From a phage: a DNA stretch of 50,768 nt. The DNA lies in sequence record NC_101820.1; one strand, 5' to 3'. The translations under genes were made by a program, and so were the position numbers. Positions 33,706 to 50,768 of the stretch are shown here, in pieces; positions within the stretch are counted from its first letter, which is position 1, and each line of letters opens with the position of its first letter. The notes under the pieces are model-generated. The model searched no databases. It was not told where the DNA came from and was given only the letters and a program-made list of their open reading frames with translations.

Positions 33706-33984
33706 TTAAGCCCATTCTCTAATCGGCTGATCCAACTCAACAACATAATCATTAAAAATTACGGAATCAAACTTATTATCAATGATTCGAACATTGACAA
33801 AATAACCGTCGTTCTTTTGTGCAATCTCATCGCCATCGTCAGATCGTGCAACTACTGTGTAAGTAGTACCGATTACATCGAGCAGGATTGCATTCTGAAT
33901 ATTTTCGTTTTCTTTCCATTCGATTTTTTCAATAAAGGCGGAAAACTCCGCCTTGTCTACAAATTTCAGTGTTAAATCACGCAT
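33706..33984 (-). CDS. hypothetical protein (92 aa)
   Basis: Start refined to ATG 33984 (TAATG overlap with the tail fibre stop); in frame with track ORF 33706..34029. Confidence 0.5.
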   Translation of the reverse strand: MRDLTLKFVDKAEFSAFIEKIEWKENENIQNAILLDVIGTTYTVVARSDDGDEIAQKNDGYFVNVRIIDNKFDSVIFNDYVVELDQPIREWA

Positions 33985-35978: not shown

Positions 35979-35996
35979 TTGTAAAATCCTCCTAAA

Positions 35997-36015
35997 TAGC
36001 ACTTTTTGCCAATGA
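35997..36015 (+). promoter_or_regulatory. conserved motif, inverted relative to the tail fibre gene and abutting its RBS
   Basis: Plus-strand TAGCACTTTTTGCCAATGA; on the minus strand it reads ...CAAAAAGTGCTATTTAGGAGG...ATG. Confidence 0.4.
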
Positions 36016-36043
36016 CAATTCAGATAATAGCATTTTTAAATGC

Positions 36044-36068
36044 AAAAAAAAACCCCGCATAAGCGGGG
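36044..36068 (-). terminator. intrinsic terminator for the primase transcript
   Basis: Minus strand CCCCGC ttat GCGGGG followed by TTTTTTTTT. Confidence 0.7.
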
Positions 36069-36084
36069 CAATACTAGCGGAGTT

Positions 36085-37014: not shown

Positions 37015-37069
37015 GGCAAACCTCAATAAAAAAGCCCAGCAAATATTATCATTTCGCTGGGCCTTATCA

Positions 37070-37546
37070 TTAGCTATTCGTGCTGTTATCACCTTTGTAG
37101 AATCTTCCGCCTGGTTCGTAGTCTGAATTTTTGACTACGCGCAACATTTCGTATTTGTCGCAACGGGTAGTAAGAGGCTTGCCGTTAGAATCAAACCGCA
37201 GATCTGGACGACAAAACGAGGCGCGGTATCCTTTGCATCCATTATATTTGTAGTCGTTATGCACCTTTTGTGCTCCAGCGGCTGAAATCATACCACGCTT
37301 TCGCCATTGGTTAACGACTTGCTGAGATACGCGCAGACGTCGAGCCATAGCAGGAACACCGCCGTAATACTCGATCAGAATGTCAAGGCGAGATTTCAGG
37401 CTTGCTTTTACCTCATCTCGCAGGATAAGAAATCCGGTTCGGTGTTTTCGTGGTTTTTTGTCTTTACCTCGTCGCGTTCCGTTGTTACCGTTAATAGTGC
37501 GCTTGTCGATCTCACCCGTAGATACTGCAATTCGTGCATCTTTCAT
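37070..37546 (-). CDS. HTH DNA-binding protein (Cro/CI-like regulator candidate)
   Basis: GGVPAMARRLRVSQQVVNQWRKRGMIS helix-turn-helix-like segment; divergent from the helicase gene. Confidence 0.55.
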   Translation of the reverse strand: MKDARIAVSTGEIDKRTINGNNGTRRGKDKKPRKHRTGFLILRDEVKASLKSRLDILIEYYGGVPAMARRLRVSQQVVNQWRKRGMISAAGAQKVHNDYKYNGCKGYRASFCRPDLRFDSNGKPLTTRCDKYEMLRVVKNSDYEPGGRFYKGDNSTNS

Positions 37547-37557
37547 CTAGTCACCTC

Positions 37558-37576
37558 ATAGCATTTTTTGTTAAAA
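37558..37576 (+). promoter_or_regulatory. conserved motif (TAGCATTTTTTGTTAAAAC) upstream of the helicase gene
   Basis: Followed by TATTAT/TATACT at offset about +38 to +48. Confidence 0.45.
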
Positions 37577-37633
37577 CAGTTTATTGTAATGAGTCTATTA
37601 TATACTCCAAATGGCATTTTTTAAAGGTTTAAG

Positions 37634-39631
37634 ATGATTCCAAATATCGAAAAACAAATATCAGCATTAGGCGAGGCAGTAATAAAAAGCATCCAAGAGC
37701 GATTCACGGTTGGCAATATAGTGCCTTATCCTTATCAGTGCGTTGCGTATGCAGAGATCGCAAAGCGCATGAAAAACTATGAGCATCCTTTCTTTGTTAA
37801 GGCTTCTGTATCGGCTGGCAAAACATTGATGTTTGCGATGGTTGCGGCGCAATGCCGCAAAATGGGATTGAAAATGATGGTCCTTGCTCGCCAGGCTGAA
37901 ATTGTTGATCAGGATTCGGAAGAGATCAGCAATCTTGGCGTGCCAAACTCAATCTATTGCGCCGGACTGAAAACAAAAAGCGCATACTTTCCGATCGTAG
38001 TCGGTTCTGAGGGCACTGTAGTAAACGGATTGTTTAAGTCGTTAGGTGATTATGTTCCGCACGTTATCGGTATTGATGAATGTCACCAGGTGGATTGGGA
38101 GGATCTCGCGGACGCGATAGAAAATAATGAATCTTACCAGCAGATGACCACTAAGAAGGATTTGCCTGTACTGATTGGAGAAGAACAGCAATTTGATTCC
38201 AATGGCGATCCAATGTTCGGAACAGGGCGCACACAGTACACCGTAATAATCATGGAAATGATGCGTAGGTGTCGCGAGGCATACGGGCACGAATTGCGAA
38301 TATTCGGCATGACTGGATCTGAGTTTCGCGGCGTGGTTCCAATACTGGTTGAAGATAAGAACAAAAAGGGATTCTGGCGTGAGCAGGTGACTAACATAGA
38401 CACAAACTACTTAATCAAATTCGGTTCGGTAGTGCCAACAAACTTCGGCGACGTAGGCGACCTGGGTTATGACCTTTCAGAGTTCGAAGCCAGTAGCGAG
38501 GATGGCGTTTCAGACTTTGACGCTAAAACATTGCGCAAGATGGAAGAAAAGATCCATCAAGACGCAACAATGACACAGAAAATCATGGCTAAAGTCCATG
38601 AGATATGCAAAGACAGGAACGGAGTTTTAGTTACATGCGCAGGGGAAAGGCACTGCAAGGAGGCCGCCTCCGCACTGCCGCCAGGCGTTGAATACAGGAT
38701 CATAACTGGCAAGACTGGAGATAATCAGCGTAAAGAGTGGCTGAGGGAGGCATACGAGGGAAAAGTAAAATACATCTTCCAGGTACAGGCGCTTACCACT
38801 GGCGTTAACGTTCCGTTTTGGGATACTTCTGTAATACTGAGAAAGATAGGATCTCTAACATTGCTTATCCAGCTTTTGGGGCGCGGCATGCGACTGCTTA
38901 AGCAATGGCACATTGAGCAGGGATTCAAGAAAAAAGATCATCTTGTATTGGATTTTGCAGGTACTATGGATGAGTTAGGTGATTTGTATTTCGATCCAAT
39001 CCTTGAGCAAGCGCAATTCCAAAAGAGATTTACAAACGGGAAAGAGCCTAAGACTTGTCCGATATGTGGAACGCTAAACAGCTTTTACGCTCGCCGATGT
39101 ATGCACGTAGACGATAACGGGAAGCGATGTGAGCATTTTTGGACTTACAGAATTTGCGAGGACCAGGTAGATCAGAGAACGAAAAAGATAATCAAGCGCG
39201 GTTGCGGAACAAAAAACGACGTAGTGGCGAGAGTATGCCGTTGTTGCGATATTTCTCTTGTCGATCCTAACGAGAAGTTAAGCGGTAAGCACTACACCAA
39301 AAACGATTGGTGCAACGTTAAATCTTTCCTCGTTGATATGACGAAAAACCAGAAAGGAATTATTTTTTGCTATGAGCTTGAGGCCAACGGCGACACGTTC
39401 AAGGCATACGAAAGATTTTTCCCTGAGTCAGAAAGCAACATTTGCCGGACGATATGGAGAAAAATAGCATTGCAGCACATACCGGATCGCAAGATTGCTG
39501 GTATGGTGGCGAGCTATAGAAATGCTCGTAAAATAATGTCATACGCTCATCACATCATGCCGCCTGTACGCGTAACGCATCGCAAAAACGGCAAAGGTGA
39601 GGATAACATTGCAAAACGGGAGTTTGTTTAA
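37634..39631 (+). CDS. SF2 DNA helicase (DEAD/DEAH-like) with C-terminal Cys-rich region
   Basis: 665 aa; ASVSAGKT (Walker A-like), GIDECHQVD (DExH box) and C-terminal CPICG...C..C cluster. Confidence 0.8.
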   Translation: MIPNIEKQISALGEAVIKSIQERFTVGNIVPYPYQCVAYAEIAKRMKNYEHPFFVKASVSAGKTLMFAMVAAQCRKMGLKMMVLARQAEIVDQDSEEISNLGVPNSIYCAGLKTKSAYFPIVVGSEGTVVNGLFKSLGDYVPHVIGIDECHQVDWEDLADAIENNESYQQMTTKKDLPVLIGEEQQFDSNGDPMFGTGRTQYTVIIMEMMRRCREAYGHELRIFGMTGSEFRGVVPILVEDKNKKGFWREQVTNIDTNYLIKFGSVVPTNFGDVGDLGYDLSEFEASSEDGVSDFDAKTLRKMEEKIHQDATMTQKIMAKVHEICKDRNGVLVTCAGERHCKEAASALPPGVEYRIITGKTGDNQRKEWLREAYEGKVKYIFQVQALTTGVNVPFWDTSVILRKIGSLTLLIQLLGRGMRLLKQWHIEQGFKKKDHLVLDFAGTMDELGDLYFDPILEQAQFQKRFTNGKEPKTCPICGTLNSFYARRCMHVDDNGKRCEHFWTYRICEDQVDQRTKKIIKRGCGTKNDVVARVCRCCDISLVDPNEKLSGKHYTKNDWCNVKSFLVDMTKNQKGIIFCYELEANGDTFKAYERFFPESESNICRTIWRKIALQHIPDRKIAGMVASYRNARKIMSYAHHIMPPVRVTHRKNGKGEDNIAKREFV

Positions 39632-40050
39632 TGGCTATAACTGATAAAGGAGATTATCTTGAGTTTTACGAAAGAGATCCAACCGACACGAGAAAGGAAG
39701 TTAATCACCAGATAGATAGCTTTCAGTGGTTGACTTATGCTCATCCTTATTTGCTAGCGTGGCATACGGTAAACGAGAATGAGAAGTCGAAAGTAACGGC
39801 GATGATTGATCAGCAGTCCGGCTTGGTTAAGGGGGTAAGCGATTTCATCATCCTGATTGGTTCAAACGGAAAATACCCCTTTGCAGCGATTGAGATCAAA
39901 CGAGTTAATAAATCAGGCAAGGGGAAAGCATCACCAGTCAGCGATGAACAAAAGTCTTTTTTGCGTCGCGTTCGCAGCTTAGGAGGATTCGCTGCGGTCG
40001 CCTACGGATTTAATCAGTTTAAGTTAGCTATTGAATACATGCTTAAATAG
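39631..40050 (+). CDS. VRR-NUC domain nuclease
   Basis: 139 aa; D...AIEIKR pattern characteristic of VRR-NUC; ATGGC overlap with the helicase stop. Confidence 0.65.
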   Translation: MAITDKGDYLEFYERDPTDTRKEVNHQIDSFQWLTYAHPYLLAWHTVNENEKSKVTAMIDQQSGLVKGVSDFIILIGSNGKYPFAAIEIKRVNKSGKGKASPVSDEQKSFLRRVRSLGGFAAVAYGFNQFKLAIEYMLK

Positions 40051-40090
40051 CACTTTTTGTTAAAACTGGCGCGATGGATTGCGCCATAAT
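40048..40090 (+). promoter_or_regulatory. conserved 19-nt motif with GGCGC/GCGCC hairpin and CATAAT at offset +37
   Basis: TAG stop of the VRR-NUC gene is the first triplet; CATAAT at 40085-40090. Confidence 0.5.
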
Positions 40091-40130
40091 TCAATAACAC
40101 GAGATGGCTTTTAATAGCGGAGAAATGAAA

Positions 40131-40856
40131 ATGGCTAAAGATATTTTAGATAAAGACACACATGACGCATTCGTTAGCTTTGAGCAGTTGGAGAGAGAAA
40201 CGTTTATAGGAAATGCTCTTGCAACTGGAGGCCATTACCAGGCAGTAAAGCCAAATCAATATTATAAGGTAAGCGGCAACCGATACGCTGGAAGCACTAC
40301 GCCGGACGTTGTGCGCGATATGTGGAGCACGCCTCAAGAGATCGTGGAGTGGATGGAATCAGAATTTGGTGAATACGATCTCGACGCGGCAGCAAGCCAG
40401 GAAAACGCAGTTTGCGAGAAGTTCTACAGCAAGGAAACAAATTGCTTAAAGCGTTGGTGGGGTAGCAACAAGCACGTATGGCTTAACCCGCCGTACAGCA
40501 ACCCAACTCCATTTATCAAGAAAGCAATTGAGCAAATGGAGCACAACAACCAAATTGATGTTTTGTTGCCATCCGACAACTCTACAGCATGGTTTTATGA
40601 GGCGCAGAAAAACGCGGCTGAAATCATCTGGATTACTGGCGAGGTTTACGAAGAGGGGGGAGTGGAATATTCCCGCACCGGAAGAATCGCCTTTGTGTCT
40701 GGATTGACTGGCGAGCCTGTACAGGGCAACAATAAGGGGAGCGTGATTTTTGTCATGCGTAAACTTAAAGAAGGCGAAGAGCAGAAAACGCGATACGTTA
40801 AGATCAGCGATATTTGCCCTTCTGTAACCGAACGCCGCGCGCGCAAACGGAGCTAA
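40131..40856 (+). CDS. DNA N6-adenine methyltransferase (Dam-like)
   Basis: NPPY motif (WLNPPYSN); about 240 aa; start uncertain among ATGs 40104-40131. Confidence 0.75.
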   Translation: MAKDILDKDTHDAFVSFEQLERETFIGNALATGGHYQAVKPNQYYKVSGNRYAGSTTPDVVRDMWSTPQEIVEWMESEFGEYDLDAAASQENAVCEKFYSKETNCLKRWWGSNKHVWLNPPYSNPTPFIKKAIEQMEHNNQIDVLLPSDNSTAWFYEAQKNAAEIIWITGEVYEEGGVEYSRTGRIAFVSGLTGEPVQGNNKGSVIFVMRKLKEGEEQKTRYVKISDICPSVTERRARKRS

Positions 40857-40860
40857 CACG

Positions 40861-41118
40861 ATGAAAAAAGAGAGAAGCGTTTATTTAAATGAAACTGGCG
40901 AGTGGTTGTTATTTCGCGCTATGGTGTGCGATGCACTTGATAAAAACCCTAACGTGAAAAAGATGATTGATTGCGATCCGTGGGAATTTTCAAGCGCATT
41001 AGATATGAGCTTTGAGGATACAAGAAAACTACCTCTTGAAAAATGGCACGAACAAATAAGAAATGACATGCAAGAGTTTGTCGATTCGTGGAATTTTCAG
41101 AACGGAATGATCCACTAA
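40861..41118 (+). CDS. hypothetical protein (85 aa)
   Basis: Track ORF; its TAA stop precedes the TAG of the next motif copy. Confidence 0.5.
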   Translation: MKKERSVYLNETGEWLLFRAMVCDALDKNPNVKKMIDCDPWEFSSALDMSFEDTRKLPLEKWHEQIRNDMQEFVDSWNFQNGMIH

Positions 41119-41161
41119 TAGCACTTTTTGTTAAAACGCCCGGCATTTTGTCGGGCATAAT
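41119..41161 (+). promoter_or_regulatory. conserved 19-nt motif with GCCCG/CGGGC hairpin and CATAAT at offset +37
   Basis: TAGCACTTTTTGTTAAAAC at 41119; CATAAT at 41156-41161. Confidence 0.5.
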
Positions 41162-41193
41162 TATTTCAACGAAACAAACATGAGGAAATGAAA

Positions 41194-41373
41194 ATGGTAG
41201 TATACAGCAAGAAAGCATTTGACCAGGCGCAACAAACAGCACGCGATGCGGTAAAAGGTGGAACGAAAAACAATATGCAGCTTGATTGGGGCGCTGCAAT
41301 GATTCTACTTCGCGTTGCATATGGTCACTACCCATTAGAATTTGCGGAGGCATATTATAAGCATGAAGGTTGA
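41194..41373 (+). CDS. hypothetical small protein (59 aa)
   Basis: ATG 41194 after GAGGAAATG; in frame with track ORF 41188..41373. Confidence 0.45.
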   Translation: MVVYSKKAFDQAQQTARDAVKGGTKNNMQLDWGAAMILLRVAYGHYPLEFAEAYYKHEG

Positions 41374-41605
41374 ACAAGGTAGAGAGGCGGTATGGAATCA
41401 CGCTAAAGAATGCGGAATAGCCGACGATATAAAGAAGATCGCGCAATACTTTGATATTGCAGATGTGAGCATAATTAGCGGTGATAAGATGACTTTCCTC
41501 AAGGAAAGGCCGCGAAAAATGGTAAGAGTTCCAGCAGTTCCAACAAAAATTGATTTCAAAGAGGCAATGGCTAAAATCCGAGAGCCTCGCAAATATTATA
41601 AATGA
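41363..41605 (+). CDS. hypothetical protein (80 aa)
   Basis: ATG 41363; in frame with track ORF 41342..41605. Confidence 0.45.
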   Translation: MKVEQGREAVWNHAKECGIADDIKKIAQYFDIADVSIISGDKMTFLKERPRKMVRVPAVPTKIDFKEAMAKIREPRKYYK

Positions 41606-41699
41606 GGATAGTTATCATGTGGCGCTTGTTTGTTCTACCGTTACCCGTTATCATCGCTGTTACAGTTATGTACCATATAGTGATGAGATAGGTGGCAGA

Positions 41700-42815
41700 A
41701 TGAAAAATGTAAAAATTACAGATGAGCAATTCAAGATCGAACGGGCGGCGGGTAAGACATATAAACAGATCGCTCAAGAGTACGGAATGAATGTGAGAAG
41801 CGTCGAGCGTCGCGCGGCGCGACTTGCAAAGCAAGGCCAGGTATCCACAATTGGAGCGCCTGGTTTTGGCGTTCATGGTGAGTCAGTAATGACTGACAAA
41901 GAAGGCAACATAATCCTAAAGTGGACTAAAACCAGCAAGGATAAAGAGCAATTAGAAGCATTAATGCGCGCAGCAATGGAGGCATTTAGCGAGGAAGTGC
42001 CGCGATTAGATCCGGTTCCATTACAGGAGCGCGACTATAACGAAACGCTTTCCTTGTATCCGATCTTTGACATGCACTTAGGCGCTATGGCCCATAAGCA
42101 CGAATGCGGCGAAAATTGGGATACCGCCACGGCAGAGCGCGTTATGAATAACTTTATCGACTATGCTTTAATGTGCGCACCGGATAGCGAAAAGGCTGTC
42201 ATCCTGATTGGTGGCGATATGCTGCATAGCGACGGCCTGGAGGCGGTTACACCTGCAAGCGGTCACGTACTGGATCAAGATAGTCGATATGCAAAATTGG
42301 TTTACGTTGCCATCCGTGCAATGCGACGCGCAATCAATAAAATGTTGTTAAAGCATAAACATGTTGAAGTCCAGATCGTAGAGGGCAATCATGACCAATC
42401 AGGAATGATTTGGCTACGCGCAGCAATGGCGGCAGCATATGAAAACGAGCCGCGCGTTTACGTTGATGTTTCCCCTCGCGTTGTGCACCACACGCAATAC
42501 GGAAAAACTTTCCTTGCGTACCATCACGGGCACACAGTGCGAAAGCCTGAAACGTTGCTAATGATGTGCGCGTCCGATTGGCGGGAGGACTTCGGAAACT
42601 CAAAAACGATGTATGCGCACGTAGGGCATTGGCATCACCAGACCGTAACGGAAACGTCGCTTGGCATCGTGGAAGTACATAGCACCCTGGCGGCAAAAGA
42701 CGCATACGCAGCGCGCGGTGGCTGGCGATCTCGACGCCGCGCGGCGGTTATCATTTACGACAAAGAGCATGGAGAGGTTGGGCGATTTGTTCACTATCCA
42801 GAAATGATGAATTGA
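41700..42815 (+). CDS. metallophosphoesterase (calcineurin-like) with N-terminal HTH-like segment
   Basis: GGDMLHSD, EGNHDQ, HHGH and GHWHH motifs; N-terminal YKQIAQEYGMNVRSVERRAARL; start refined to ATG 41700. Confidence 0.6.
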   Translation: MKNVKITDEQFKIERAAGKTYKQIAQEYGMNVRSVERRAARLAKQGQVSTIGAPGFGVHGESVMTDKEGNIILKWTKTSKDKEQLEALMRAAMEAFSEEVPRLDPVPLQERDYNETLSLYPIFDMHLGAMAHKHECGENWDTATAERVMNNFIDYALMCAPDSEKAVILIGGDMLHSDGLEAVTPASGHVLDQDSRYAKLVYVAIRAMRRAINKMLLKHKHVEVQIVEGNHDQSGMIWLRAAMAAAYENEPRVYVDVSPRVVHHTQYGKTFLAYHHGHTVRKPETLLMMCASDWREDFGNSKTMYAHVGHWHHQTVTETSLGIVEVHSTLAAKDAYAARGGWRSRRRAAVIIYDKEHGEVGRFVHYPEMMN

Positions 42816-42861
42816 TGAATTTTTATTTAAATCAATGACAAATTAAATCAAAAACTTGCAA

Positions 42862-42890
42862 GGGGGCGGCGTTTGTCGCCTCTTTTTTTT
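42862..42890 (+). terminator. intrinsic terminator
   Basis: GC-rich imperfect hairpin (GGCGGCG...GTCGCC) followed by nine T. Confidence 0.55.
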
Positions 42891-42925
42891 TGTTTAATTT
42901 TTTTACCATGTACGTTTATCATAAG

Positions 42926-42939
42926 GTCAATATATTGAC
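42926..42939. promoter_or_regulatory. perfect 14-bp palindrome GTCAATATATTGAC upstream of the lysis cassette (candidate operator)
   Basis: Perfect inverted repeat about 25 nt upstream of the holin start. Confidence 0.4.
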
Positions 42940-42962
42940 TTTAATTAATATGGAGAATAAAA

Positions 42963-43178
42963 ATGAAAGATTTTATTAACGCAGCTACCGCTGGATCTGG
43001 CGGTTCATCTATCGCAAGCGCCGCTACAGGGCAGTTAACCATTGCTATTGCCAGCTTTGTTTTAATGGCTGCATTCGGTGCATGGGGCGCTTACCTTCGC
43101 TGGCGTGATAGTAAAAAATTCCACGAGGCGATCGAAAAAGGTGATATTCAAAAAGCTATTGAAATCAGGGGCAAGTAA
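42963..43178 (+). CDS. holin (pinholin-like, class II)
   Basis: 71 aa with hydrophobic segments and charged C-terminus; immediately upstream of a SAR endolysin. Confidence 0.7.
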
Positions 43179-43669
43179 TGAGCATAAAGAACAGGGTAGC
43201 GGCGGCGGCCTTTGGCGTTGCGGTTGCCTTGACTTCTCCACTTCTTGAAGAGATCGAAGGGGTAAGATACAAGCCATACAAAGATATTGCTGGAGTATGG
43301 ACGGTTTGCGCAGGAATCACCGGACCAGATGTTATCCTGGGGAAAACGTACACTAAAAAAGAGTGTGATGCTTTGTTGGCTAAGCATATCCAGGTTGCTA
43401 AAAAGGAAGTTGACAGGCAAGTTAAGGTTGATATTCCTGATAGTATGCGTGCAGCAATGTACTCATTCACTTACAATGCAGGTGTGGGAGCTTTCAGAAA
43501 TTCAACAATGCTGAAACTCATCAACCAGGGGAAATTAAACGAGGCTTGCGATCAGCTTTATCGTTGGACTTATTACCATAACCCAAAAACAGGAAAGCGC
43601 GAGAAGTCTAAAGGCTTACTTAACAGGCGCAAGGTCGAATACAAATATTGCACAATGGATCTGAAATGA
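43178..43669 (+). CDS. SAR endolysin (lysozyme, T4/P21-like fold)
   Basis: N-terminal signal-anchor-release segment [16 protein letters not shown] followed by E-x8-D-x5-T catalytic pattern ([16 protein letters not shown]). Confidence 0.85.
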
Positions 43670-44061
43670 TGAAGAAATTTTTAATCGCACCAATCGCAAT
43701 GGCGGTGATCTTGTCTGGATGTTCAAGCGTTACGCCACTGACAGGATTAATCGGCAGTAAGCCGGAAATCACAGCGCAGGCTGGCGCGGAGAACGTGAAG
43801 CAGACAGTTGGCATTACAGCAAGGCAGGACGCCAGCACAAAACAGGAAACCACAATAAAGGAATCTGCGGTTGACAAGGTGGACACGTCCAGCAAGAAGG
43901 ATTTCACAACATCAACTATTCAGGCCAATACCATCAAGGCAGACAAAATTCAGGTCGTGCAGGGTAATAACGGCAGATGGTACGATCCGGTAATCATATG
44001 CGTGGTTGTGTTAATTGTGCTGATTTGTCTTTACTGGAGAGAAAAGAAAAAGGAGGCTTAA
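43666..44061 (+). CDS. unimolecular spanin (T1 gp11-like)
   Basis: Lipoprotein signal [19 protein letters not shown] plus C-terminal transmembrane helix [16 protein letters not shown] in one polypeptide. Confidence 0.75.
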
Positions 44062-44078
44062 TGCCTCCTTTATTTTTA
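44045..44078. terminator. bidirectional terminator
   Basis: AGGAGGC ttaat GCCTCCT flanked by A-rich and T-rich runs, between convergent genes. Confidence 0.65.
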
Positions 44079-44300
44079 TGCGTCGGGCCACATATGAGTT
44101 TCGTTTGTTGGCTTGTTCGATTCGTCGTACTGCCTTACTTCAATGCTGCAAGTGTCGCCGTACATTTCTGCAATCTTGCGCTCATTTTCAACCGCCGATT
44201 GCTCACTCCAGCCTGAATCCTTATCGTAAACTGTCGGGATTTCAGAAGAAGATCCATTTGCATGATTGTATACGCGAACTACTAAAAACTTGCTGGACAT
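44076..44300 (-). CDS. hypothetical protein (74 aa)
   Basis: Start refined to ATG 44300 after AAAAAAGGAAAAATT; in frame with track ORF 44076..44351. Confidence 0.5.
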   Translation of the reverse strand: MSSKFLVVRVYNHANGSSSEIPTVYDKDSGWSEQSAVENERKIAEMYGDTCSIEVRQYDESNKPTNETHMWPDA

Positions 44301-44361
44301 AATTTTTCCTTTTTTGTTGGTTCGTTTCGATGAAACAAATATACCCGACACAAGGTCGGGA

Positions 44362-44380
44362 GTTTTAACAAAAAATGCTA
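44362..44380 (-). promoter_or_regulatory. conserved motif with CCCGAC/GTCGGG hairpin and TATATT at offset +37
   Basis: Minus strand TAGCATTTTTTGTTAAAAC; leader contains CATCGAAACGAACC. Confidence 0.5.
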
Positions 44381-44498
44381 TTCCATACGCTTTACTGTAA
44401 CCAATAACACACCATCATCATTGCATAAAACGTGTTCAGTGGTGCTAAAAGCTCGCATATCTGAATAAAGTAGCGTAAGTAAAGCATGAATAAAATCA

Positions 44499-44894
44499 TC
44501 ATGTGATATTGAATTTACGGCGCAGTGCTTCAAGATCTTGTCTATTAGCTTTTGCCTGGAACAATTCATCATCGCCCATCTCCCCTATTCTAGCCATATC
44601 CCTGATCCAGTCGTTGCGCATACCATCCAGGCTATAAAATTCGAATCCGAAAGGCCGCTTTGACGATCCTTTGGACCAGTATTTACCGCATACCCCATCT
44701 ATATAGCCAGCCGTCATCATTCTTGCGCAAAATTCCTTAGATGCAAGGCTGGCTAACATTCGCGGAGTAAGTCCGGCGGCCCGTGCGAGCCGCTCACATT
44801 CTCTATGCTGATAGATAAATTTGGCTATGTGCTGCCTGTTAAACCAGTCGTATGACTCACACCATTTATACAGATCAAGCAAAAACATAATCAT
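44499..44894 (-). CDS. hypothetical protein (131 aa)
   Basis: Track ORF; ATGA overlap with the upstream ATPase gene. Confidence 0.55.
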   Translation of the reverse strand: MIMFLLDLYKWCESYDWFNRQHIAKFIYQHRECERLARAAGLTPRMLASLASKEFCARMMTAGYIDGVCGKYWSKGSSKRPFGFEFYSLDGMRNDWIRDMARIGEMGDDELFQAKANRQDLEALRRKFNIT

Positions 44895-46471
44895 CCCAGC
44901 AGTATTGGATTGACAAAAATAACACCATTAATCACACAAACATAATTTCTTTCTTCCAGCATTGGCAGTAAGTGCCCTTCTATCCTTTTCATTACGCCAG
45001 CCTGACCAACGAAAGGTTTTACCTTTCTCGCTGATTCGTACAGGGCGCGGATATTCAGAATCCCTTTATTAGCCTTGCCGTGCCTCGTGATCAATTCAAT
45101 CAATTTACCCATTTCAGCATCATCACCAGCATAACCAGAAGCATTGGCGGCGCTAATGTATGTTTTGCTCAATTCCTGAAACATGATCAACGCCTCTTGC
45201 ATTGTTTCCACGTCGATCTCTTTCGACTTCTGCGGGTATCCGGCAGGATTAAACCAGTTACGGATAACATGCAGGACGGAAGCAAGCCTGATCACCTGTT
45301 TATCCATTTTACCCAGCGCACCGCGTAACATTGTATGAGAATACTTTCCTCCGTCTGCAAGATGCGGTTCCATATCCTGGCGAGCAATGTTGAGCACTCG
45401 CATAGCTGAACGGCTTATTTTCAGCGATATATTTGATTCGCTCATGATGTTATGCACCAATTGATAATATTGGGCTTTCAATTCAGAATCCACCGCCTCA
45501 TAGGTAGAATCACCATTTTCATCAATGAATGAGCGACGGCCTAAGAATGATTCCTCGCGGACCAACAAAAAACGCTCACTAACACCGATGCCTCGCGATC
45601 CAGCGTCCATGATTCCGCTTATCGTTTCATCCTGGGCTATAACGCTCATACATCCAAGCGCGCGAAAACTCATATTATTGTCAGCATTAGCACGGGCAAT
45701 TGATACGTGACCATTATCCCACGCCTTAAGCACTAACTCACTGTTAGTCTTCCTTTCGCTATTTGCATAGGTCAAGCCTAACAGACTGTTAATACTTGTT
45801 GCTTCATCAGATATTACGGCAAAGTTACCTTGCTTGTTGTTGATTTTCGCCAAGCCTTCTGGAGTTGTATCTGAAACAGGAAAAGTTATATCACACATTT
45901 TTTCCAGCTTTTCCTCCAGATCCTCTTTTTCCTGGTATAGAGATTCCATATCAGCGCCGGATCTTTCGCTTTTCATCTCCTTTGCAAGACCTGCCAGCTT
46001 TGCCTGTATTTTCTTTCTTTCCTTGCGGCGTTGCTCGTTGATCTTCTCAACTTCCGCAATCATCGGAGCAATAGCCATGCTGTTGATCGCAGATTTACCA
46101 GTTGACGGCGGCTGGCTTGTAACGACGTAAAGCGCAGTCGGCTGATCGGTTCCGTGATAGTCAACCGTAAAGCGTCCAAGCATAGCGGCAGAAATGCAGC
46201 CGATAAAGTGCATATAAGCCGATGATTCAGGGAATTGAACGGATCGCGCAATGCTGCGTGATAACTTGCCGACAACATCAATATCATTACCAAGAGAAAT
46301 AACGGGGTAGCGATCGTGACCGCTATTCACATCCTTTACGTCGCCCCAAAAGCTGGACGACTGGCGATAGCCGTTAGCCTGAATTGATACGCGAACTGGC
46401 GAAAGGTTCTGGCTTTCAGCCAGAGCGATTATTTGTTGTGGAGTTAATTTGTTCGTTTCTAATGAAAACAT
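44891..46471 (-). CDS. P-loop NTPase of unknown role (DUF3987-like, tentative)
   Basis: 526 aa; Walker A SQPPSTGKSA and Walker B-like FAVISDEATS; family assignment is from memory and unverified. Confidence 0.6.
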   Translation of the reverse strand: MFSLETNKLTPQQIIALAESQNLSPVRVSIQANGYRQSSSFWGDVKDVNSGHDRYPVISLGNDIDVVGKLSRSIARSVQFPESSAYMHFIGCISAAMLGRFTVDYHGTDQPTALYVVTSQPPSTGKSAINSMAIAPMIAEVEKINEQRRKERKKIQAKLAGLAKEMKSERSGADMESLYQEKEDLEEKLEKMCDITFPVSDTTPEGLAKINNKQGNFAVISDEATSINSLLGLTYANSERKTNSELVLKAWDNGHVSIARANADNNMSFRALGCMSVIAQDETISGIMDAGSRGIGVSERFLLVREESFLGRRSFIDENGDSTYEAVDSELKAQYYQLVHNIMSESNISLKISRSAMRVLNIARQDMEPHLADGGKYSHTMLRGALGKMDKQVIRLASVLHVIRNWFNPAGYPQKSKEIDVETMQEALIMFQELSKTYISAANASGYAGDDAEMGKLIELITRHGKANKGILNIRALYESARKVKPFVGQAGVMKRIEGHLLPMLEERNYVCVINGVIFVNPILLG

Positions 46472-46522
46472 TCGTTAGCTTCTCCTTTGTGGGCCGTAAA
46501 TTTTAACGGCCCAATACTACCC

Positions 46523-46541
46523 CGTTTTGTCAAAAAGTGCT
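46523..46541 (-). promoter_or_regulatory. conserved motif variant with TAAAAT in a GGGCCG/CGGCCC hairpin loop
   Basis: Minus strand TAGCACTTTTTGACAAAAC then hairpin then RBS AAAGGAG and ATG 46471. Confidence 0.5.
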
Positions 46542-46761
46542 ATTTGATCCGCTCTATTGCAACCAGAAGTCGATCAGGCTGGCGGTCGCTGTAGCATTCT
46601 CCTGTAATCCCATCCTTAAACGTAAAGTAAAGCGCCTTATGATATGAAAAACCAATCAGCCAACCTACCGCCGTTTTTTTGATTGGCCTGACTATATCGC
46701 CAGGCTTGAAAGTCTTTGTGGCAGAATGCGTTACTTTGTAACGGTTCTCACTGTTTATCAC
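46540..46761 (-). CDS. hypothetical protein (73 aa)
   Basis: Track ORF (GTG start as listed); my manual reading of this region differs from the track by one base near 46560. Confidence 0.4.
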   Translation of the reverse strand: MINSENRYKVTHSATKTFKPGDIVRPIKKTAVGWLIGFSYHKALYFTFKDGITGECYSDRQPDRLLVAIERIK

Positions 46762-47144
46762 AGATATTTGCCCTCAAACAGATAACATCCGCCAGCAGAG
46801 AATCCGACCTCTTCACGGTACAGGTTCCAGCGGTCGCCGCACTCATCAAAAACATAACCCGCAACGCTTCCAAGCGGTCGCCCTTTCTCGATCTGGTATC
46901 GCTTGCCCTGCTTAAAGTGCTTTTTGCACGGCATGTTATGATCTACAAACGTGCAAAGAACGGTTTTTGTGTTAATGACGCGGTAATCATCTCGGTTTGC
47001 TGGAAGCCAACGGCTACCCTTAACAAGCGTCTTAACCTGGAACTCTTCCAACTCGATCACATCATTACTTCCTGCAATCTTCTGATAAACCGTTTTAAAA
47101 CGGCCTTTCATCAATACGTTGGTTTCATTACAGATAACATTCAT
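46758..47144 (-). CDS. hypothetical protein (128 aa)
   Basis: Track ORF; ATG 47144 preceded by AAAGGAG. Confidence 0.55.
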   Translation of the reverse strand: MNVICNETNVLMKGRFKTVYQKIAGSNDVIELEEFQVKTLVKGSRWLPANRDDYRVINTKTVLCTFVDHNMPCKKHFKQGKRYQIEKGRPLGSVAGYVFDECGDRWNLYREEVGFSAGGCYLFEGKYL

Positions 47145-47197
47145 GATTAGATCTCCTTTGTTTGTTCGATGTGATTATGCCAGGTTTTTACACCTGG

Positions 47198-47216
47198 CTT
47201 TTAACAAAAAGTGCTA
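47198..47216 (-). promoter_or_regulatory. conserved 19-nt motif with GCCAGGTG/CACCTGGC hairpin and CATAAT at offset +37
   Basis: Minus strand TAGCACTTTTTGTTAAAAG then hairpin then CATAAT, CACATCGAAC, RBS and ATG 47144. Confidence 0.5.
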
Positions 47217-47930
47217 TTTTGAGTTTGACTCAAATACGGCGCGAGCAAAGCCGCGCGGAGTGAGGGAGCGGATCATCTTTGTGCGCGATGACTTGCCGCC
47301 AGTTTTGGCCCAGCCTGGATTATCTTTGTCTTCCTCTTTCGGCAGGATTAAAGCGCGTGGAGGAATAACAAAGCCATTGCCAGTCCAGAGGCACGTTTTC
47401 TTAAAGTAGCGATCCCGCGCCGGAATAATATCAGGGAAGTCGGGATGTTTATCATCTTCCGGCAGATAGCCAGCGTAATCGCACGGATGGAACGTATAAT
47501 CAGGTTTTCGCCATAACGTTGACAACTTGCCAACCGGATTTTCGATCATGTAAGGAACACCGAAATAATCAGCTATATCATCCGCGATTCTGCAAGTGTC
47601 GGCGGCCTCATCCTGGAACGATGGATTCTCAAGGCGTTTTTTGGCCCAATGGCGAGATCCGCTATTTGCAAGGTCGGTGCAAGGAGGGAACGCCATAATA
47701 AAATCAGGATTGCCCCACTCATTATTGATTGCCTTAACATAAAAAGCATCATCAATCCAGACGTTAACGTATTCGATATTCTCATGCTGTATGCGCACTG
47801 ACTGGTAATCACCGTGATCGCCGCCGTCAGCATTAAAGCAAATGCACTTATAGCCATTATCAGCCCAATCTTTAACGGCTTTACCAGATCCATCAAATAG
47901 GGAGAATATTAAACCTTTATACATCGTCAT
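47214..47930 (-). CDS. C5-cytosine methyltransferase-like protein
   Basis: Motif I-like IFSLFDGSG, motif IV-like FPPCTDLANSG (catalytic Cys) and motif VI-like MIENPVG; start refined to ATG 47930. Confidence 0.55.
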   Translation of the reverse strand: MTMYKGLIFSLFDGSGKAVKDWADNGYKCICFNADGGDHGDYQSVRIQHENIEYVNVWIDDAFYVKAINNEWGNPDFIMAFPPCTDLANSGSRHWAKKRLENPSFQDEAADTCRIADDIADYFGVPYMIENPVGKLSTLWRKPDYTFHPCDYAGYLPEDDKHPDFPDIIPARDRYFKKTCLWTGNGFVIPPRALILPKEEDKDNPGWAKTGGKSSRTKMIRSLTPRGFARAVFESNSK

Positions 47931-47934
47931 TACC

Positions 47935-48159
47935 TCAAAACGGAAAACAGCGCGGACAACCAGGATCGAAATCGCATCCACAATCATTAACAATCATAGT
48001 TGGATCTGCAAATATTGCGCTTGATTCAAGATCCATATCCATATCACCTAAAGCCTCATCAAGACTCTTAATTTTATATGCCACTTCAAGCGCCGCCTCT
48101 TTATTTAGTCCGGCATCTTCTGCCATTTGAAGGCGCTCAAAAAATCCGTCTTGACTCAT
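47935..48159 (-). CDS. hypothetical protein with C-terminal Cys cluster (74 aa)
   Basis: Track ORF; C-terminus CGCDFDPGCPRCFPF. Confidence 0.5.
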   Translation of the reverse strand: MSQDGFFERLQMAEDAGLNKEAALEVAYKIKSLDEALGDMDMDLESSAIFADPTMIVNDCGCDFDPGCPRCFPF

Positions 48160-48272
48160 CGCATAATCCCCTTAATAACAGCCAAGATAATAGCCAGGCC
48201 AGCAGCAGTAACCAAAAAGCCAACCGCGCCAATAATCGAATAAAAAAAGAAATCAATAGCCTTATCTATCAT
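48156..48272 (-). CDS. small hydrophobic peptide (38 aa)
   Basis: Not in track; ATG 48272 after GAGGTGG and a hairpin; MIDKAIDFFFYSIIGAVGFLVTAAGLAIILAVIKGIMR; stop overlaps the next start. Confidence 0.35.
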   Translation of the reverse strand: MIDKAIDFFFYSIIGAVGFLVTAAGLAIILAVIKGIMR

Positions 48273-48314
48273 TTTCCACCTCATTTAAAAGGCGGCAAAA
48301 CGCCGCCATATTAA

Positions 48315-48542
48315 TTAAAGAGCACGCCAACTTTGAATATAGAAAGCGTTTTCTTCCAGTAATTCTTTTAACTGATCTTTATTGTATTTGCGCACCTTAC
48401 CGCCTGGATGGATACCAATAAGATATCCGCCTTTGCCCTCGGTGATAGTGATTTGGCTAATTCCGCAAGACTTATCAAGTTTTACAGCCACGCGGTGATG
48501 AGCGTCAATAGTTGCCATAATGTTTAAAACTTTTGCTTTCAT
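48315..48542 (-). CDS. hypothetical protein (75 aa)
   Basis: Track ORF. Confidence 0.5.
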   Translation of the reverse strand: MKAKVLNIMATIDAHHRVAVKLDKSCGISQITITEGKGGYLIGIHPGGKVRKYNKDQLKELLEENAFYIQSWRAL

Positions 48543-48650
48543 TTAAATATCCTCAATTGAAATATGAATGGCGTCGTGCTCTTTTTCCGTCGCCGCCGTA
48601 ATGGTCATTTGCAGCCGATACCATCAAGGCATTTTTGAAAATAAATAGCC

Positions 48651-48863
48651 TCATTTCTTATTTTTCATCTTAAATTTATGGCCTGGAACACCAGCACCAA
48701 TATAGCCATCGTTGTATTCCATTAAATAAAGGTGAAGGCCATTATCTGAAATTACATGAGGATCTTCTTTGAGATTTCCCATTAGTGGATATTCTTTTTC
48801 GCGCGTAAATCTCCAAGTTGAGTTATAAGTTTCTACGCATTTAAGTTTTAATTGCTTTGCCAT
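48651..48863 (-). CDS. small protein (70 aa), member of the four-copy family
   Basis: LKCVETYNS...DNGLHLYLMEYNDG resembles 2429..2650 and 2647..2892. Confidence 0.5.
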   Translation of the reverse strand: MAKQLKLKCVETYNSTWRFTREKEYPLMGNLKEDPHVISDNGLHLYLMEYNDGYIGAGVPGHKFKMKNKK

Positions 48864-49060
48864 TAGATGATCTCCATGTATGTTTCAAAGCCATTTAACT
48901 TGAACAGGCCGTTTTCACATTTGCGAACGTTCCAAGTTAGCCCTGAGTGGTACGCCTCCATATCATCAAGGTCAATGGTGATTTCAGCACCTTTCTTAAA
49001 CAAACATTTTTCGTGAGACTTGTCGCGCTTAACAACTTTAACATCAACCTGATTTTCCAT
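48863..49060 (-). CDS. small protein (65 aa), member of the four-copy family
   Basis: KCLFKKG...GLFKLNGFET pattern; leader ACAACAAACGAGGATTTAAAG nearly identical to that of plus-strand gene 3882. Confidence 0.5.
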   Translation of the reverse strand: MENQVDVKVVKRDKSHEKCLFKKGAEITIDLDDMEAYHSGLTWNVRKCENGLFKLNGFETYMEII

Positions 49061-49114
49061 CTTTAAATCCTCGTTTGTTGTCGATGCGCTTACTATACCA
49101 ATCAGCAGCGCATC

Positions 49115-49134
49115 GTTTTTAACAAAAAGTGCTA
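49115..49134 (-). promoter_or_regulatory. conserved 19-nt motif with 8-bp hairpin GATGCGCT/AGCGCATC enclosing TATAGT
   Basis: Minus strand TAAATAGCACTTTTTGTTAAAAAC; TATAGT at offset +37 in the hairpin loop. Confidence 0.5.
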
Positions 49135-49135
49135 T

Positions 49136-49399
49136 TTAGTCCAGGAATTCGATTTCACGCTCTCCAGTTAACGGATTCACAAGCCAGAATCCGAGCGGTT
49201 CGCCGTGAACACCGCCATAGAATCCAAGAGCCGTCAGATCTTCACCTTTAACGAATACCAGGTTTCCGCTACGGCTTACGTGAGACACGTTAACGATAAC
49301 CGGAAATGTGCGATCCTTAAATGCAGGCCGCAGGGCGTAACATCCGTTATTGAGCAAACGTGCTTTGCGCTTAACTGGAATAGGTGCATTAATTTTCAT
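49136..49399 (-). CDS. hypothetical protein (87 aa)
   Basis: Track ORF; its TAA stop lies within the TAAATAG of the motif. Confidence 0.55.
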   Translation of the reverse strand: MKINAPIPVKRKARLLNNGCYALRPAFKDRTFPVIVNVSHVSRSGNLVFVKGEDLTALGFYGGVHGEPLGFWLVNPLTGEREIEFLD

Positions 49400-49411
49400 G
49401 GTTATTACTCC

Positions 49412-49624
49412 TTATCGTAAAGATTTAAAGACGTATAGTTTATTGCGGTAACTATATATCCGCATTGTTATTTCTCGCAGCGCAATATATTCCTTCCTGT
49501 TTTCCGGCATCCTGGCGAGCAATAACAGACAGTATTTATAAGCGCGGTCAAGATTCCTTTCCGTGCCCCTGCAATATCCCTTATTGCGCCTGGAGCGGTA
49601 CAGCCATAACAATTTCTTGAACAT
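49412..49624 (-). CDS. small basic protein (70 aa)
   Basis: ATG 49624 after GGGAGGA; in frame with track ORF 49412..49810; R/K-rich. Confidence 0.45.
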   Translation of the reverse strand: MFKKLLWLYRSRRNKGYCRGTERNLDRAYKYCLLLLARMPENRKEYIALREITMRIYSYRNKLYVFKSLR

Positions 49625-49625
49625 T

Positions 49626-49835
49626 TCAGATCCTCCCATACAGATCGCAAACTTCGTTGATAAAACAGCGTTGAGACTCTTTATCCTGCTTCTCAAAAAT
49701 TGCGCGGCATTCAAACTTAAGATTATGCACGATGACAACAACCATATTTTCAGGTGCTGACGGGTGACGCGCTGACGCGTCGCAGATTGAAACATCCATA
49801 CCCATCTCATGTGCTTTCTTGATCACATCCAACAT
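49626..49835 (-). CDS. hypothetical protein (69 aa)
   Basis: ATG 49835 after CAGGAG; in frame with track ORF 49626..49859. Confidence 0.45.
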   Translation of the reverse strand: MLDVIKKAHEMGMDVSICDASARHPSAPENMVVVIVHNLKFECRAIFEKQDKESQRCFINEVCDLYGRI

Positions 49836-50089
49836 TTTTTCTTCTCCTGCAATAAGCAAACATCATTGATAAAATCAGCACGGCCCTTAATGTTGCTGAT
49901 GTGGAACGTCTTTTCAGCGTACAGGCCATCACCTTCAATCACGATCATTACGCGAGTCGGTTTATTCACGGGCGCACACGAAAAGAGTGGTCGCGCCGGA
50001 AGAAATTTAGTGGTCACATCCAGGTTAGCCCTGGCGGCCCTGCAAAACGCCTCCGCCAGATCCAAATCATTTTCGGTAATCACCGCCAT
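49823..50089 (-). CDS. hypothetical protein (88 aa)
   Basis: Track ORF; ATGA overlap with the upstream gene. Confidence 0.5.
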   Translation of the reverse strand: MAVITENDLDLAEAFCRAARANLDVTTKFLPARPLFSCAPVNKPTRVMIVIEGDGLYAEKTFHISNIKGRADFINDVCLLQEKKKCWM

Positions 50090-50361
50090 TACTTCTTGAT
50101 CTCCTTACTGATAAATTTCAGCACCTGGCGCAAGAAAACTTCGTTGTTGATAGTCGCTGGCAATTCTTCTTTCACTTCTTGCGGCAGATAGATATTGCAG
50201 TGCCAGGTCAAGCAATCGTAGTTAATGCGATAAGAGCAAAGCCACTCGCAATCGTTATCTGCTTCCCATATGCAGAGTTGCAGAACATCGCCAAAATCTT
50301 CAACAGTCAGATCCAGACCGTGACGCTTAGCGAAATTGAAAGTGGTTTTGCTGATGTTCAT
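50089..50361 (-). CDS. hypothetical protein (90 aa), first gene of the leftward arm
   Basis: Track ORF; RBS CAGGAG; leader contains CATCGAAACGAACC. Confidence 0.55.
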   Translation of the reverse strand: MNISKTTFNFAKRHGLDLTVEDFGDVLQLCIWEADNDCEWLCSYRINYDCLTWHCNIYLPQEVKEELPATINNEVFLRQVLKFISKEIKK

Positions 50362-50418
50362 TTACTATCTCCTGAGCGGTTCGTTTCGATGTGTGTAATG
50401 TACCCGATCAGGCGGCCT

Positions 50419-50439
50419 GATTTTTAACAAAAAGTGTTA
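50419..50439 (-). promoter_or_regulatory. conserved motif variant (TAACACTTTTTGTTAAAAATC) with hairpin and TACATT
   Basis: Minus strand motif then TCAGG/CCTGA hairpin then TACATT, CATCGAAACGAACC, RBS and ATG 50361. Confidence 0.45.
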
Positions 50440-50471
50440 TTTGACGGTTAGCACCAGGATTGTGATCGAAA

Positions 50472-50559
50472 TAATCAAAAGTAATCATTCGTAATCAAAT
50501 CGCGTCAAAATGATGATTGCCTTTGCAAATTTGATGAGAAAAGCAATCACGTTTAATCA
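50472..50559. repeat. iteron-like array of TAATCA hexamers
   Basis: TAATCA at 50472, 50482 and 50492 (exact 10-bp phasing), CAATCA at 50544 and TAATCA at 50554, plus an inverted near-copy at about 50514. Confidence 0.5.
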
Positions 50560-50768
50560 TTGGTTGCAGGGGAGATAGTGAAACCTTCCCCTCTTGCCTC
50601 ACTTTTCCGCCTGGCTGTCAGTGGTTGTTGTCTTTTGTTCACCCCTGTTACCGATTTCAGGCGGCGTGTTTCCGCGCGGTTTTCCGGTGTAGCGAAAACG
50701 AAAAAAACAAAAAAATCCCTCTATAATACATTGAAAATAAAGATTATTTATTTATATATATCTATAAC

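What the first reader, a model, noticed from the sequence alone, without database searches (positions are those of the whole stretch)
47214..47930. C5-cytosine-methyltransferase-like gene in addition to a Dam-like adenine methyltransferase
The minus-strand protein carries motif I-like FDGSG, a PPC motif with a candidate catalytic Cys (FPPCTDLANSG) and an ENP(V)G motif in the order expected for C5-MTase-fold enzymes, but it is short (about 238 aa) and has Thr where the PCQ Gln normally sits. Together with the Dam-like enzyme (40131..40856) the phage may apply two different base modifications, or this enzyme may do non-canonical chemistry. Either would be relevant to evasion of host restriction.
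Basis: partly seen in the sequence, partly recalled or inferred. Interest (0 to 1): 0.55.

Follow-up and report, generated by a model that had tools for sequence, protein, structure and literature searches.

The report
Known phage Dcm-like cytosine methyltransferase
This is an ordinary, already annotated gene of T1-like coliphages: a small DNA cytosine-C5 methyltransferase, and tests on a phage closely related to one whose version is 90% identical showed that it makes 5-methylcytosine and sets off the bacterial retron Ec86/Eco1 defence.

Summary
The minus-strand ORF ending at 47214 carries FDGSG, FPPC and ENPVG in the stated order. The best start is ATG 47924, giving 236 aa rather than 238.

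The window is a Warwickvirus (Drexlerviridae), about 99% identical to phage tinuso in the 2.1-kb stretch compared. The gene is 98% identical in DNA to BASEL Bas04 "Dcm-like C5 cytosine methyltransferase". Its protein is 90% identical, without gaps, to the Bas06 KarlJaspers protein.

For a KarlJaspers strain (K42), Wang et al. reported four things:
- a 711-bp gene with C82, E128, K175 and K176, the same length and numbering as here;
- 5mC on retron msDNA by LC-MS;
- loss of growth toxicity in a four-residue active-site mutant;
- escape from retron Ec86/Eco1 when the gene is lost.

One point stays open: the recognition sequence, assumed to be CCWGG, has not been determined directly.

Verdict: already known, low interest.

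The parts
47214..47924 (-). Coding sequence of the Dcm-like DNA cytosine-C5 methyltransferase (236 aa; stop codon 47214..47216)
47933..47936 (-). Shine-Dalgarno GAGG, 8 nt upstream of ATG 47924
   Evidence: Sequence. The same GAGG lies upstream of the Bas06 start. [quoted passage not shown]
47883..47903 (-). Motif I, SLFDGSG (residues 8-14), predicted SAM-binding loop
   Evidence: Family conservation: L9 80/84, D11 67/84, G14 65/84. Aligns to DNMT3B SLFDG.
47658..47690 (-). Motif IV, FPPCTDLANSG (residues 79-89), with the catalytic nucleophile Cys82 (codon 47679..47681)
   Evidence: C82 invariant in 84/84 homologues. Aligns with DNMT3B PCNDLS and with E. coli Dcm FPCQPFS. C82A is part of the inactive quadruple mutant of the K42 enzyme.
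47529..47543 (-). Motif VI, ENPVG (residues 128-132), with Glu128
   Evidence: E128 and P130 invariant, N129 81/84. Aligns with the ENV of E. coli Dcm. E128A is in the K42 mutant.
47397..47402 (-). Lys175-Lys176, inside the family signature D-x-Y-x-K-x-T-x-x-W (residues 171-180)
   Evidence: Y173 and W180 invariant, K175 83/84, T177 83/84. Wang et al. named K175/K176 substrate-binding residues and mutated them.
47235..47270 (-). C-terminal conserved block RSLTPRGFARAV (residues 219-230), candidate for motif X
   Evidence: R219 82/84, P223 80/84, G225 82/84, A229 78/84. The assignment to motif X is an inference from its position and was not tested.
40131..40856 (+). Companion gene: Dam-like N6-adenine DNA methyltransferase
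   Evidence: PF05869, E 1.6e-61, scored on the longer ORF 40104..40856. The same gene is annotated in Bas04 and Bas06.

Best explanation
The gene encodes a small (236 aa) SAM-dependent DNA cytosine-C5 methyltransferase of the phage family PHROG 757.

Inferred mechanism, as in other C5 methyltransferases:
- Cys82 of the FPPC loop attacks C6 of a flipped-out cytosine.
- Glu128 of ENP protonates N3.
- The methyl group of SAM, held by the FDGSG loop, is transferred to C5, giving 5-methylcytosine.

Inferred role: during infection the enzyme methylates phage DNA, and any other DNA it meets, probably at CCWGG. This complements GATC methylation by the phage Dam and blunts restriction by methylation-sensitive enzymes such as EcoRII.

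The same activity is a liability. In cells carrying retron Ec86/Eco1 it methylates the stem-loop of the retron msDNA, which switches on the retron's effector and aborts the infection.

What is shown and what is inferred:
- Shown here: fold, catalytic motifs, conservation and orthology.
- Shown by others on a phage closely related to one whose protein is 90% identical: 5mC product, retron trigger, dispensability.
- Inferred: the CCWGG site and the anti-restriction benefit.
For: Orthology:
- 99% DNA identity to Warwickvirus phages over the 2.1-kb stretch compared.
- 98% DNA identity to Bas04 'Dcm-like C5 cytosine methyltransferase'.
- 90% aa identity without gaps to the Bas06 protein, in the same gene order of DUF3987 helicase, two small ORFs, methyltransferase, 225-bp ORF.

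Experiment by others (Wang et al., bioRxiv 10.1101/2023.08.16.553469; published as Cell Rep 2024;43:114857, cited):
- The K42 gene is 711 bp with C82/E128/K175/K176, the same length and numbering as here.
- All four escaper phages disrupt it.
- Its expression slows growth only in cells with the retron.
- LC-MS shows high 5mC on msDNA with the wild-type enzyme and low 5mC with the quadruple mutant.

Fold: AlphaFold pLDDT 88.1, pTM 0.88.
- Foldseek: top 18 hits are DNMT3A/B or a prophage C5 MTase, E about 2e-6.

Conservation: C82, E128 and P130 are invariant in 84 homologues of 33-57% identity.

The only sequence hits in the PDB, all weak, are C5 MTases aligned across motifs I-IV.
Against: - No Pfam or NCBIfam hit for the protein, even at E<=10.
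- hhalign against E. coli Dcm aligns motifs IV and VI, but with probability only 3.5%.
- The K42 protein sequence itself was not available. Identity was measured against Bas06, to which the K42 genome is 95.4% identical.
- The tested mutant was a quadruple mutant, so no single residue's role has been shown.
- CCWGG specificity was assumed by analogy with host Dcm. The host in that experiment, MG1655, carries dcm, yet it neither triggered the retron nor methylated the msDNA well.
- BASEL found no simple link between methyltransferase genes and restriction resistance in Drexlerviridae.
Confidence: 0.85

Rival explanations
1. The fold and the 5mC chemistry are the same, but the target is not that of host Dcm (inner C of CCWGG). 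The enzyme may recognise a shorter or different site, the outer cytosine, or prefer hairpin or single-stranded DNA such as msDNA.
For: - The protein is half the size of E. coli Dcm (236 vs 472 aa).
- It has no BLAST-level similarity to Dcm.
- Only about 65 residues lie between the WRKPD block and the C-terminal block.
- Its nearest solved folds are DNMT3A/B, which read a 2-bp site (own knowledge).
- Host Dcm in MG1655 does not substitute for the phage enzyme in triggering the retron.
- The authors did not determine the site directly.
Against: - Changing either C of the msDNA CCTGG abolishes defence.
- CCWGG is abundant in the window (138 sites against 126.5 expected), whereas CCSGG is strongly avoided (3 against 20.7), so CCNGG as a whole is not protected.
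- The CCWGG count is weak evidence, because T1 lacks the gene and does not avoid CCWGG either.
- Overexpression from pBAD could alone explain the difference from host Dcm.
Confidence: 0.3
2. The enzyme has a C5-MTase fold but transfers something other than a methyl group, for example carboxymethyl from carboxy-SAM as phage CmoX does, so the phage would carry a hypermodified cytosine.
For: - The E. coli host makes carboxy-SAM through CmoA.
- Thr replaces the usual Gln after the catalytic Cys.
Against: - LC-MS found 5mC as the product of the KarlJaspers-K42 enzyme in E. coli, where carboxy-SAM is available.
- CmoX comes with a phage-encoded CmoA and often an amide ligase CmoY next to it.
- The window has no CmoA or CmoB homologue: best tblastn E 0.95 and 2.4.
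- Bas04 and Bas06 annotations list none in the parts read.
Confidence: 0.03
3. It is an RNA (tRNA) cytosine-C5 methyltransferase of the Dnmt2 kind, or an inactive DNA-binding relic, rather than a DNA methyltransferase.
For: - A weak profile hit to DNMT2, E 0.9.
- The protein is small and lacks a canonical target-recognition domain.
Against: - DNA methyltransferases score higher than DNMT2.
- DNA (msDNA) is methylated in vivo by the KarlJaspers-K42 enzyme, and this depends on the active-site residues.
- The catalytic Cys and Glu are invariant across 84 diverse homologues, which argues against an inactive relic.
Confidence: 0.03

Closest known systems
Phage KarlJaspers (BASEL Bas06 / strain K42) Dcm, the trigger of retron Ec86/Eco1 (Wang et al. 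2023 bioRxiv; Cell Rep 2024;43:114857)
   Same: - Same length (711 bp, 236 aa) and same residue numbering (C82, E128, K175, K176).
- 90% aa identity without gaps to Bas06, with residues 121-236 almost identical.
- Same flanking gene order.
   Different: - 24 substitutions, mostly in residues 23-70.
- A different genus: Warwickvirus here, Hanrivervirus for Bas06.
- The protein of this window has not itself been tested.
Bas04 FritzSarasin 'Dcm-like C5 cytosine methyltransferase' and other Warwickvirus orthologues (tinuso, swan01, tonnikala, SECphi27)
   Same: 95-99.6% nucleotide identity over the whole gene, at the same locus.
   Different: Only the gene model differs. Many records start the gene 63 bp further upstream (774 bp), overlapping the neighbouring 74-aa ORF.
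Catalytic domain of mammalian DNMT3A/DNMT3B
   Same: - The same motif variants, SLFDG and PC-x-DLS.
- A very small region in the position of the target-recognition domain.
   Different: - Only 15-16% identity.
- No regulatory domains (own knowledge).
- Oligomeric state unknown.
- The DNMT3 enzymes read CpG (own knowledge).
E. coli Dcm (M.EcoKDcm, CCWGG)
   Same: Same chemistry (5mC) and the presumed same target site. Motifs IV and VI align.
   Different: - No significant sequence similarity: tblastn of Dcm against the window gives best E 0.2, at an unrelated place; hhalign probability 3.5%.
- 236 vs 472 aa.
- No vsr partner gene in the window.
- 'Dcm-like' is a functional label, not orthology.
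Phage CmoX, DNA cytosine C5-carboxymethyltransferase (PDB 8YF3, PMC12783734)
   Different: CmoX needs carboxy-SAM from an adjacent phage CmoA and recognises GC. Neither context is present here, and the reported product of the K42 enzyme is 5mC.

Membership tests
DNA cytosine-C5 methyltransferases (C5-MTase fold; Pfam PF00145) | Motif IV Pro-Cys with the catalytic cysteine | tested here: met
   FPPC; C82 invariant in 84/84 homologues. Aligns to the PC of DNMT3B and of E. coli Dcm.
DNA cytosine-C5 methyltransferases (C5-MTase fold; Pfam PF00145) | Motif VI Glu-Asn-Val | tested here: met
   ENP; E128 84/84, N129 81/84, P130 84/84. Pro replaces Val. Aligns to the ENV of Dcm.
DNA cytosine-C5 methyltransferases (C5-MTase fold; Pfam PF00145) | Motif I FxGxG SAM-binding loop | tested here: met
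   FDGSG in this protein. Across the family the first Gly is variable, while D11 (67/84), S/T13 (80/84) and G14 (65/84) are conserved.
DNA cytosine-C5 methyltransferases (C5-MTase fold; Pfam PF00145) | Motif VIII (QxRxR) and motif X (GNxV) | tested here: inconclusive
   Candidate blocks are LWRKPD (R139 74/84) and RSLTPRGFARAV. No residue-level structural alignment was available to confirm the equivalence.
DNA cytosine-C5 methyltransferases (C5-MTase fold; Pfam PF00145) | Score above the Pfam PF00145 gathering threshold | tested here: not met
   No hit at E<=10 for this protein. 5 of 84 homologues give weak hits, best E 0.0039. The family lies outside the Pfam model, so membership is at the level of fold and superfamily.
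DNA cytosine-C5 methyltransferases (C5-MTase fold; Pfam PF00145) | Three-dimensional fold of C5-MTases | tested here: met
   [not shown]
DNA cytosine-C5 methyltransferases (C5-MTase fold; Pfam PF00145) | Produces 5-methylcytosine in DNA | not testable with these tools
   Reported for the KarlJaspers-K42 enzyme by LC-MS. The protein here is 90% identical to that of strain Bas06.
PHROG 757 (phage DNA methyltransferase) | Profile match over the full length | tested here: met
   E 1.9e-85, residues 2-237 on profile positions 11-219 of 247.
Retron Ec86/Eco1-triggering phage Dcm | Orthology to the K42/KarlJaspers Dcm (same locus, length and catalytic residues) | tested here: met
   90% identity without gaps to Bas06, same neighbours, 711 bp, C82/E128/K175/K176.
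Retron Ec86/Eco1-triggering phage Dcm | Methylates the msDNA stem-loop and activates the retron effector | not testable with these tools
   Shown for K42 only.
E. coli Dcm orthologues (M.EcoKDcm) | Sequence homology to Dcm, including its target-recognition domain, and a linked vsr gene | tested here: not met
   tblastn of Dcm and of Vsr against the window: best E 0.2, at unrelated places. hhalign probability 3.5%. No NCBIfam hit.
E. coli Dcm orthologues (M.EcoKDcm) | CCWGG specificity, inner cytosine | tested here: inconclusive
   CCWGG is not avoided in the window (138 against 126.5 expected), but neither is it in T1, which lacks the gene. The literature assumes the site rather than mapping it.
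CmoX carboxymethyltransferases | Adjacent phage CmoA (carboxy-SAM synthase) | tested here: not met
   No CmoA or CmoB homologue in the window: tblastn best E 0.95 and 2.4. None in the Bas04 and Bas06 annotation read.

The most novel reading that the evidence does not exclude
The enzyme makes 5mC but does not copy host Dcm. As a minimal, DNMT3-like methyltransferase with almost no target-recognition domain, it may read a shorter or different site, or prefer hairpin DNA. That would explain why the phage needs its own enzyme in dcm-positive hosts, and how retron Eco1 tells phage methylation from host methylation.
Probability: 0.3. Interest if true: 0.4.

Novelty: already known. Interest (0 to 1): 0.12.

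Why it matters
The gene predicts two practical properties of this phage. Its DNA should carry 5mC as well as 6mA, which affects restriction digests, cloning, and nanopore or bisulfite work. The phage should also be sensitive to hosts carrying retron Ec86/Eco1, such as E. coli BL21 (the strain named), unless the gene is lost; the gene is dispensable, since a K42 escaper deleted it.

It is a clear case of an anti-restriction function that a second-line defence uses as its alarm signal. None of this is new: the gene is annotated in near-identical genomes and the function has been published.

The one useful gap is the recognition sequence, which has never been mapped directly for this large family. 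The family has 2137 clusters at 50% identity and is not covered by Pfam.

Tried and rejected
- Pfam and NCBIfam scans of the protein found nothing.
- PDB sequence searches with the protein and with two family profiles gave only weak hits, E 0.2-1. They point to C5 MTases but are not significant alone.
- hhalign of the 84-sequence profile against E. coli Dcm placed motifs IV and VI correctly, but with probability 3.5%.
- Restriction-site statistics as a proxy for specificity: CCWGG and GATC are not avoided while many palindromes are. I rejected this as evidence because phage T1 lacks the gene and does not avoid CCWGG either.
- Literature searches for methylome or restriction-digest data on Drexlerviridae cytosine methylation found nothing usable.
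- The published Cell Reports version of the retron paper is not held, so I used the preprint.
- The promoter and terminator scan around the gene found nothing above the shuffled expectation.
- Carboxymethyltransferase reading: rejected for lack of CmoA and because the reported product is 5mC.
- The longer 259-aa (TTG 47993) and 257-aa (ATG 47987) gene models were rejected. Their N-terminal extension overlaps the conserved upstream ORF and is absent from most homologues in the alignment.

Full report
**What is there.** The minus strand between 47214 and 47993 holds one long ORF. Two in-frame ATGs lie at 47930 and 47924. A GAGG at 47933..47936 sits 8 nt before the second ATG and only 2 nt before the first. 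The upstream 74-aa ORF ends at 47935. The orthologue in phage KarlJaspers (Bas06) is annotated from the MYKG methionine as a 711-bp gene. I therefore place the gene at 47214..47924 (236 aa). Longer models used in several GenBank records (774 bp) overlap the upstream ORF, and most homologues lack the extension.

**Where the window comes from.** A 2.1-kb stretch around the gene is 99.0% identical to Escherichia phage tinuso (Drexlerviridae, Tempevirinae, Warwickvirus). It is 98-99% identical to swan01, tonn, tonnikala and others. The gene itself is 95-99.6% identical to genes annotated 'DNA-cytosine methylase', 'Dcm', or, in the curated BASEL phage FritzSarasin (Bas04), 'Dcm-like C5 cytosine methyltransferase'. 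Homologues occur in 1498 phage records: Escherichia, Klebsiella, Salmonella, Shigella and other phages of about 45-50 kb and of about 135-170 kb. An exhaustive profile search found 2137 clusters at 50% identity at E<=1e-3, and most of the 150 listed are 200-260 aa long.

**Is it a C5 methyltransferase?**
- Curated profile libraries are silent. Pfam and NCBIfam give no hit even at E<=10.
- PHROG 757 'DNA methyltransferase' matches at 1.9e-85.
- Among 84 diverse homologues (33-57% identity), only five touch PF00145, best E 0.0039.
- PDB sequence searches give only weak hits (E 0.2-0.9). These are DNMT3B, HaeIII and DNMT2, aligned across motif I to motif IV.
- The decisive computational evidence is structural. 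An AlphaFold model built with 19 homologues has pLDDT 88.1 and pTM 0.88.
- Foldseek agrees: DNMT3A/B at E about 2e-6.
- In the 84-sequence alignment C82, E128, P130, P147, Y173, W180 and P188 are invariant.
- The Thr after the Cys is the family norm (75 of 84). It is no anomaly for the fold, since DNMT3B has Asn there.

**Experimental evidence from the literature.** Wang et al. selected mutants of phage KarlJaspers strain K42 that escape retron Ec86/Eco1. The work is bioRxiv 10.1101/2023.08.16.553469, later Cell Rep 2024;43:114857 (reference seen).
- All four escapers hit a 711-bp gene they call dcm. One deleted it, one carried a frameshift, and two carried a point mutation 9 bp upstream of the start.
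- Expressing the protein slowed growth only when the retron was present.
- A C82A/E128A/K175A/K176A mutant was inert.
- LC-MS showed high 5mC on msDNA with the wild-type enzyme and low 5mC with the mutant or the empty vector.
- Mutating the CCTGG in the msDNA stem-loop abolished defence.
- 34 of 35 retron-sensitive phages carried the gene.

The window's protein has the same length and the same numbering of those four residues. It is 90% identical without gaps to the Bas06 protein, with residues 121-236 almost unchanged, and the flanking genes are the same. I treat it as an orthologue of the tested enzyme.

**The second methyltransferase.** ORF 40104..40856, probably starting at 40131 as in Bas04, matches Pfam Dam PF05869 at 1.6e-61. 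BASEL had already noted that Drexlerviridae commonly encode both kinds of enzyme. It found no simple correlation between these genes and restriction resistance.

**What remains open.** The recognition site has not been mapped. The authors took CCWGG from E. coli Dcm. The phage protein shows no detectable sequence homology to Dcm beyond motifs IV and VI. It is half the size of Dcm and has only about 65 residues where a target-recognition domain would sit. Their host MG1655 carries dcm, yet without the phage enzyme the retron stayed silent and the msDNA was poorly methylated. The paper does not discuss this.

I tried site statistics as a proxy. CCWGG (138 observed, 126.5 expected) and GATC (305, 306.5) are not avoided. 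CCSGG (3, 20.7) is strongly avoided, and 23 of 64 six-base palindromes are absent. However, phage T1 lacks the gene (no tblastn hit) and does not avoid CCWGG either (83, 100.1). So this test says nothing about the enzyme's specificity.

**Verdict.** The gene is annotated as a Dcm-like C5 methyltransferase in near-identical genomes. Its function, including its unexpected role as the retron Eco1 trigger, has been published. Interest is low. The only modestly novel possibility left is that its specificity differs from that of host Dcm.

Noticed in passing
whole window 1..50768: Strong avoidance of restriction-type palindromes. 23 of 64 six-base palindromes never occur, including AAGCTT, GGATCC, CTGCAG and TCCGGA. 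CCSGG occurs 3 times against 20.7 expected, and RCCGGY 2 against 24.7. GATC and CCWGG are at expectation. Phage T1 lacks only 11 of 64 and does not avoid CCSGG (65 against 44.7).
   Followed up: partly
window 47924..47993 and 47935..48159 (-): Gene models disagree between database records. tinuso and Bas04 start the methyltransferase 63 bp further upstream (774 bp), overlapping the conserved 74-aa ORF. Bas06 uses the 711-bp model, which fits the Shine-Dalgarno spacing.
   Followed up: yes
window 47935..48159 (-): A 74-aa ORF lies immediately upstream of the methyltransferase and stops 8 nt before its start codon. Its C-terminus is Cys-rich (CGCDFDPGCPRCFPF), it has no Pfam hit, and it is conserved as a separate gene in relatives.
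   Followed up: no
window 39631..40050 (+): A VRR-NUC nuclease-domain protein (PF08774, E 3.6e-10) is encoded directly upstream of the Dam-like methyltransferase.
   Followed up: no
window 44891..46471 (-): A 526-aa DUF3987 protein (PF13148, E 1.7e-44), annotated 'putative helicase' in BASEL phages, lies two small ORFs downstream of the methyltransferase gene on the same strand.
   Followed up: no
L009 (phage T1, NC_005833): T1, the type phage of the family, has the Dam gene (ST20) but no homologue of the Dcm-like gene. In the corresponding arm next to its helicase gene (ST9) it carries an HNH endonuclease gene (ST8) and small ORFs.
   Followed up: partly
phage database hits to window 46500..48600: 20 records named 'Campylobacter phage', with host given as C. 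jejuni, match this coliphage region at the nucleotide level. One of them, A134, encodes a 46%-identical methyltransferase. This is an odd host label for T1-like genomes.
   Followed up: no
literature (bioRxiv 10.1101/2023.08.16.553469): In dcm-positive MG1655 the retron msDNA, which carries a CCTGG site, is poorly methylated and the retron stays off until the phage enzyme is expressed. The paper gives no explanation of why host Dcm does not do the same job.
   Followed up: partly
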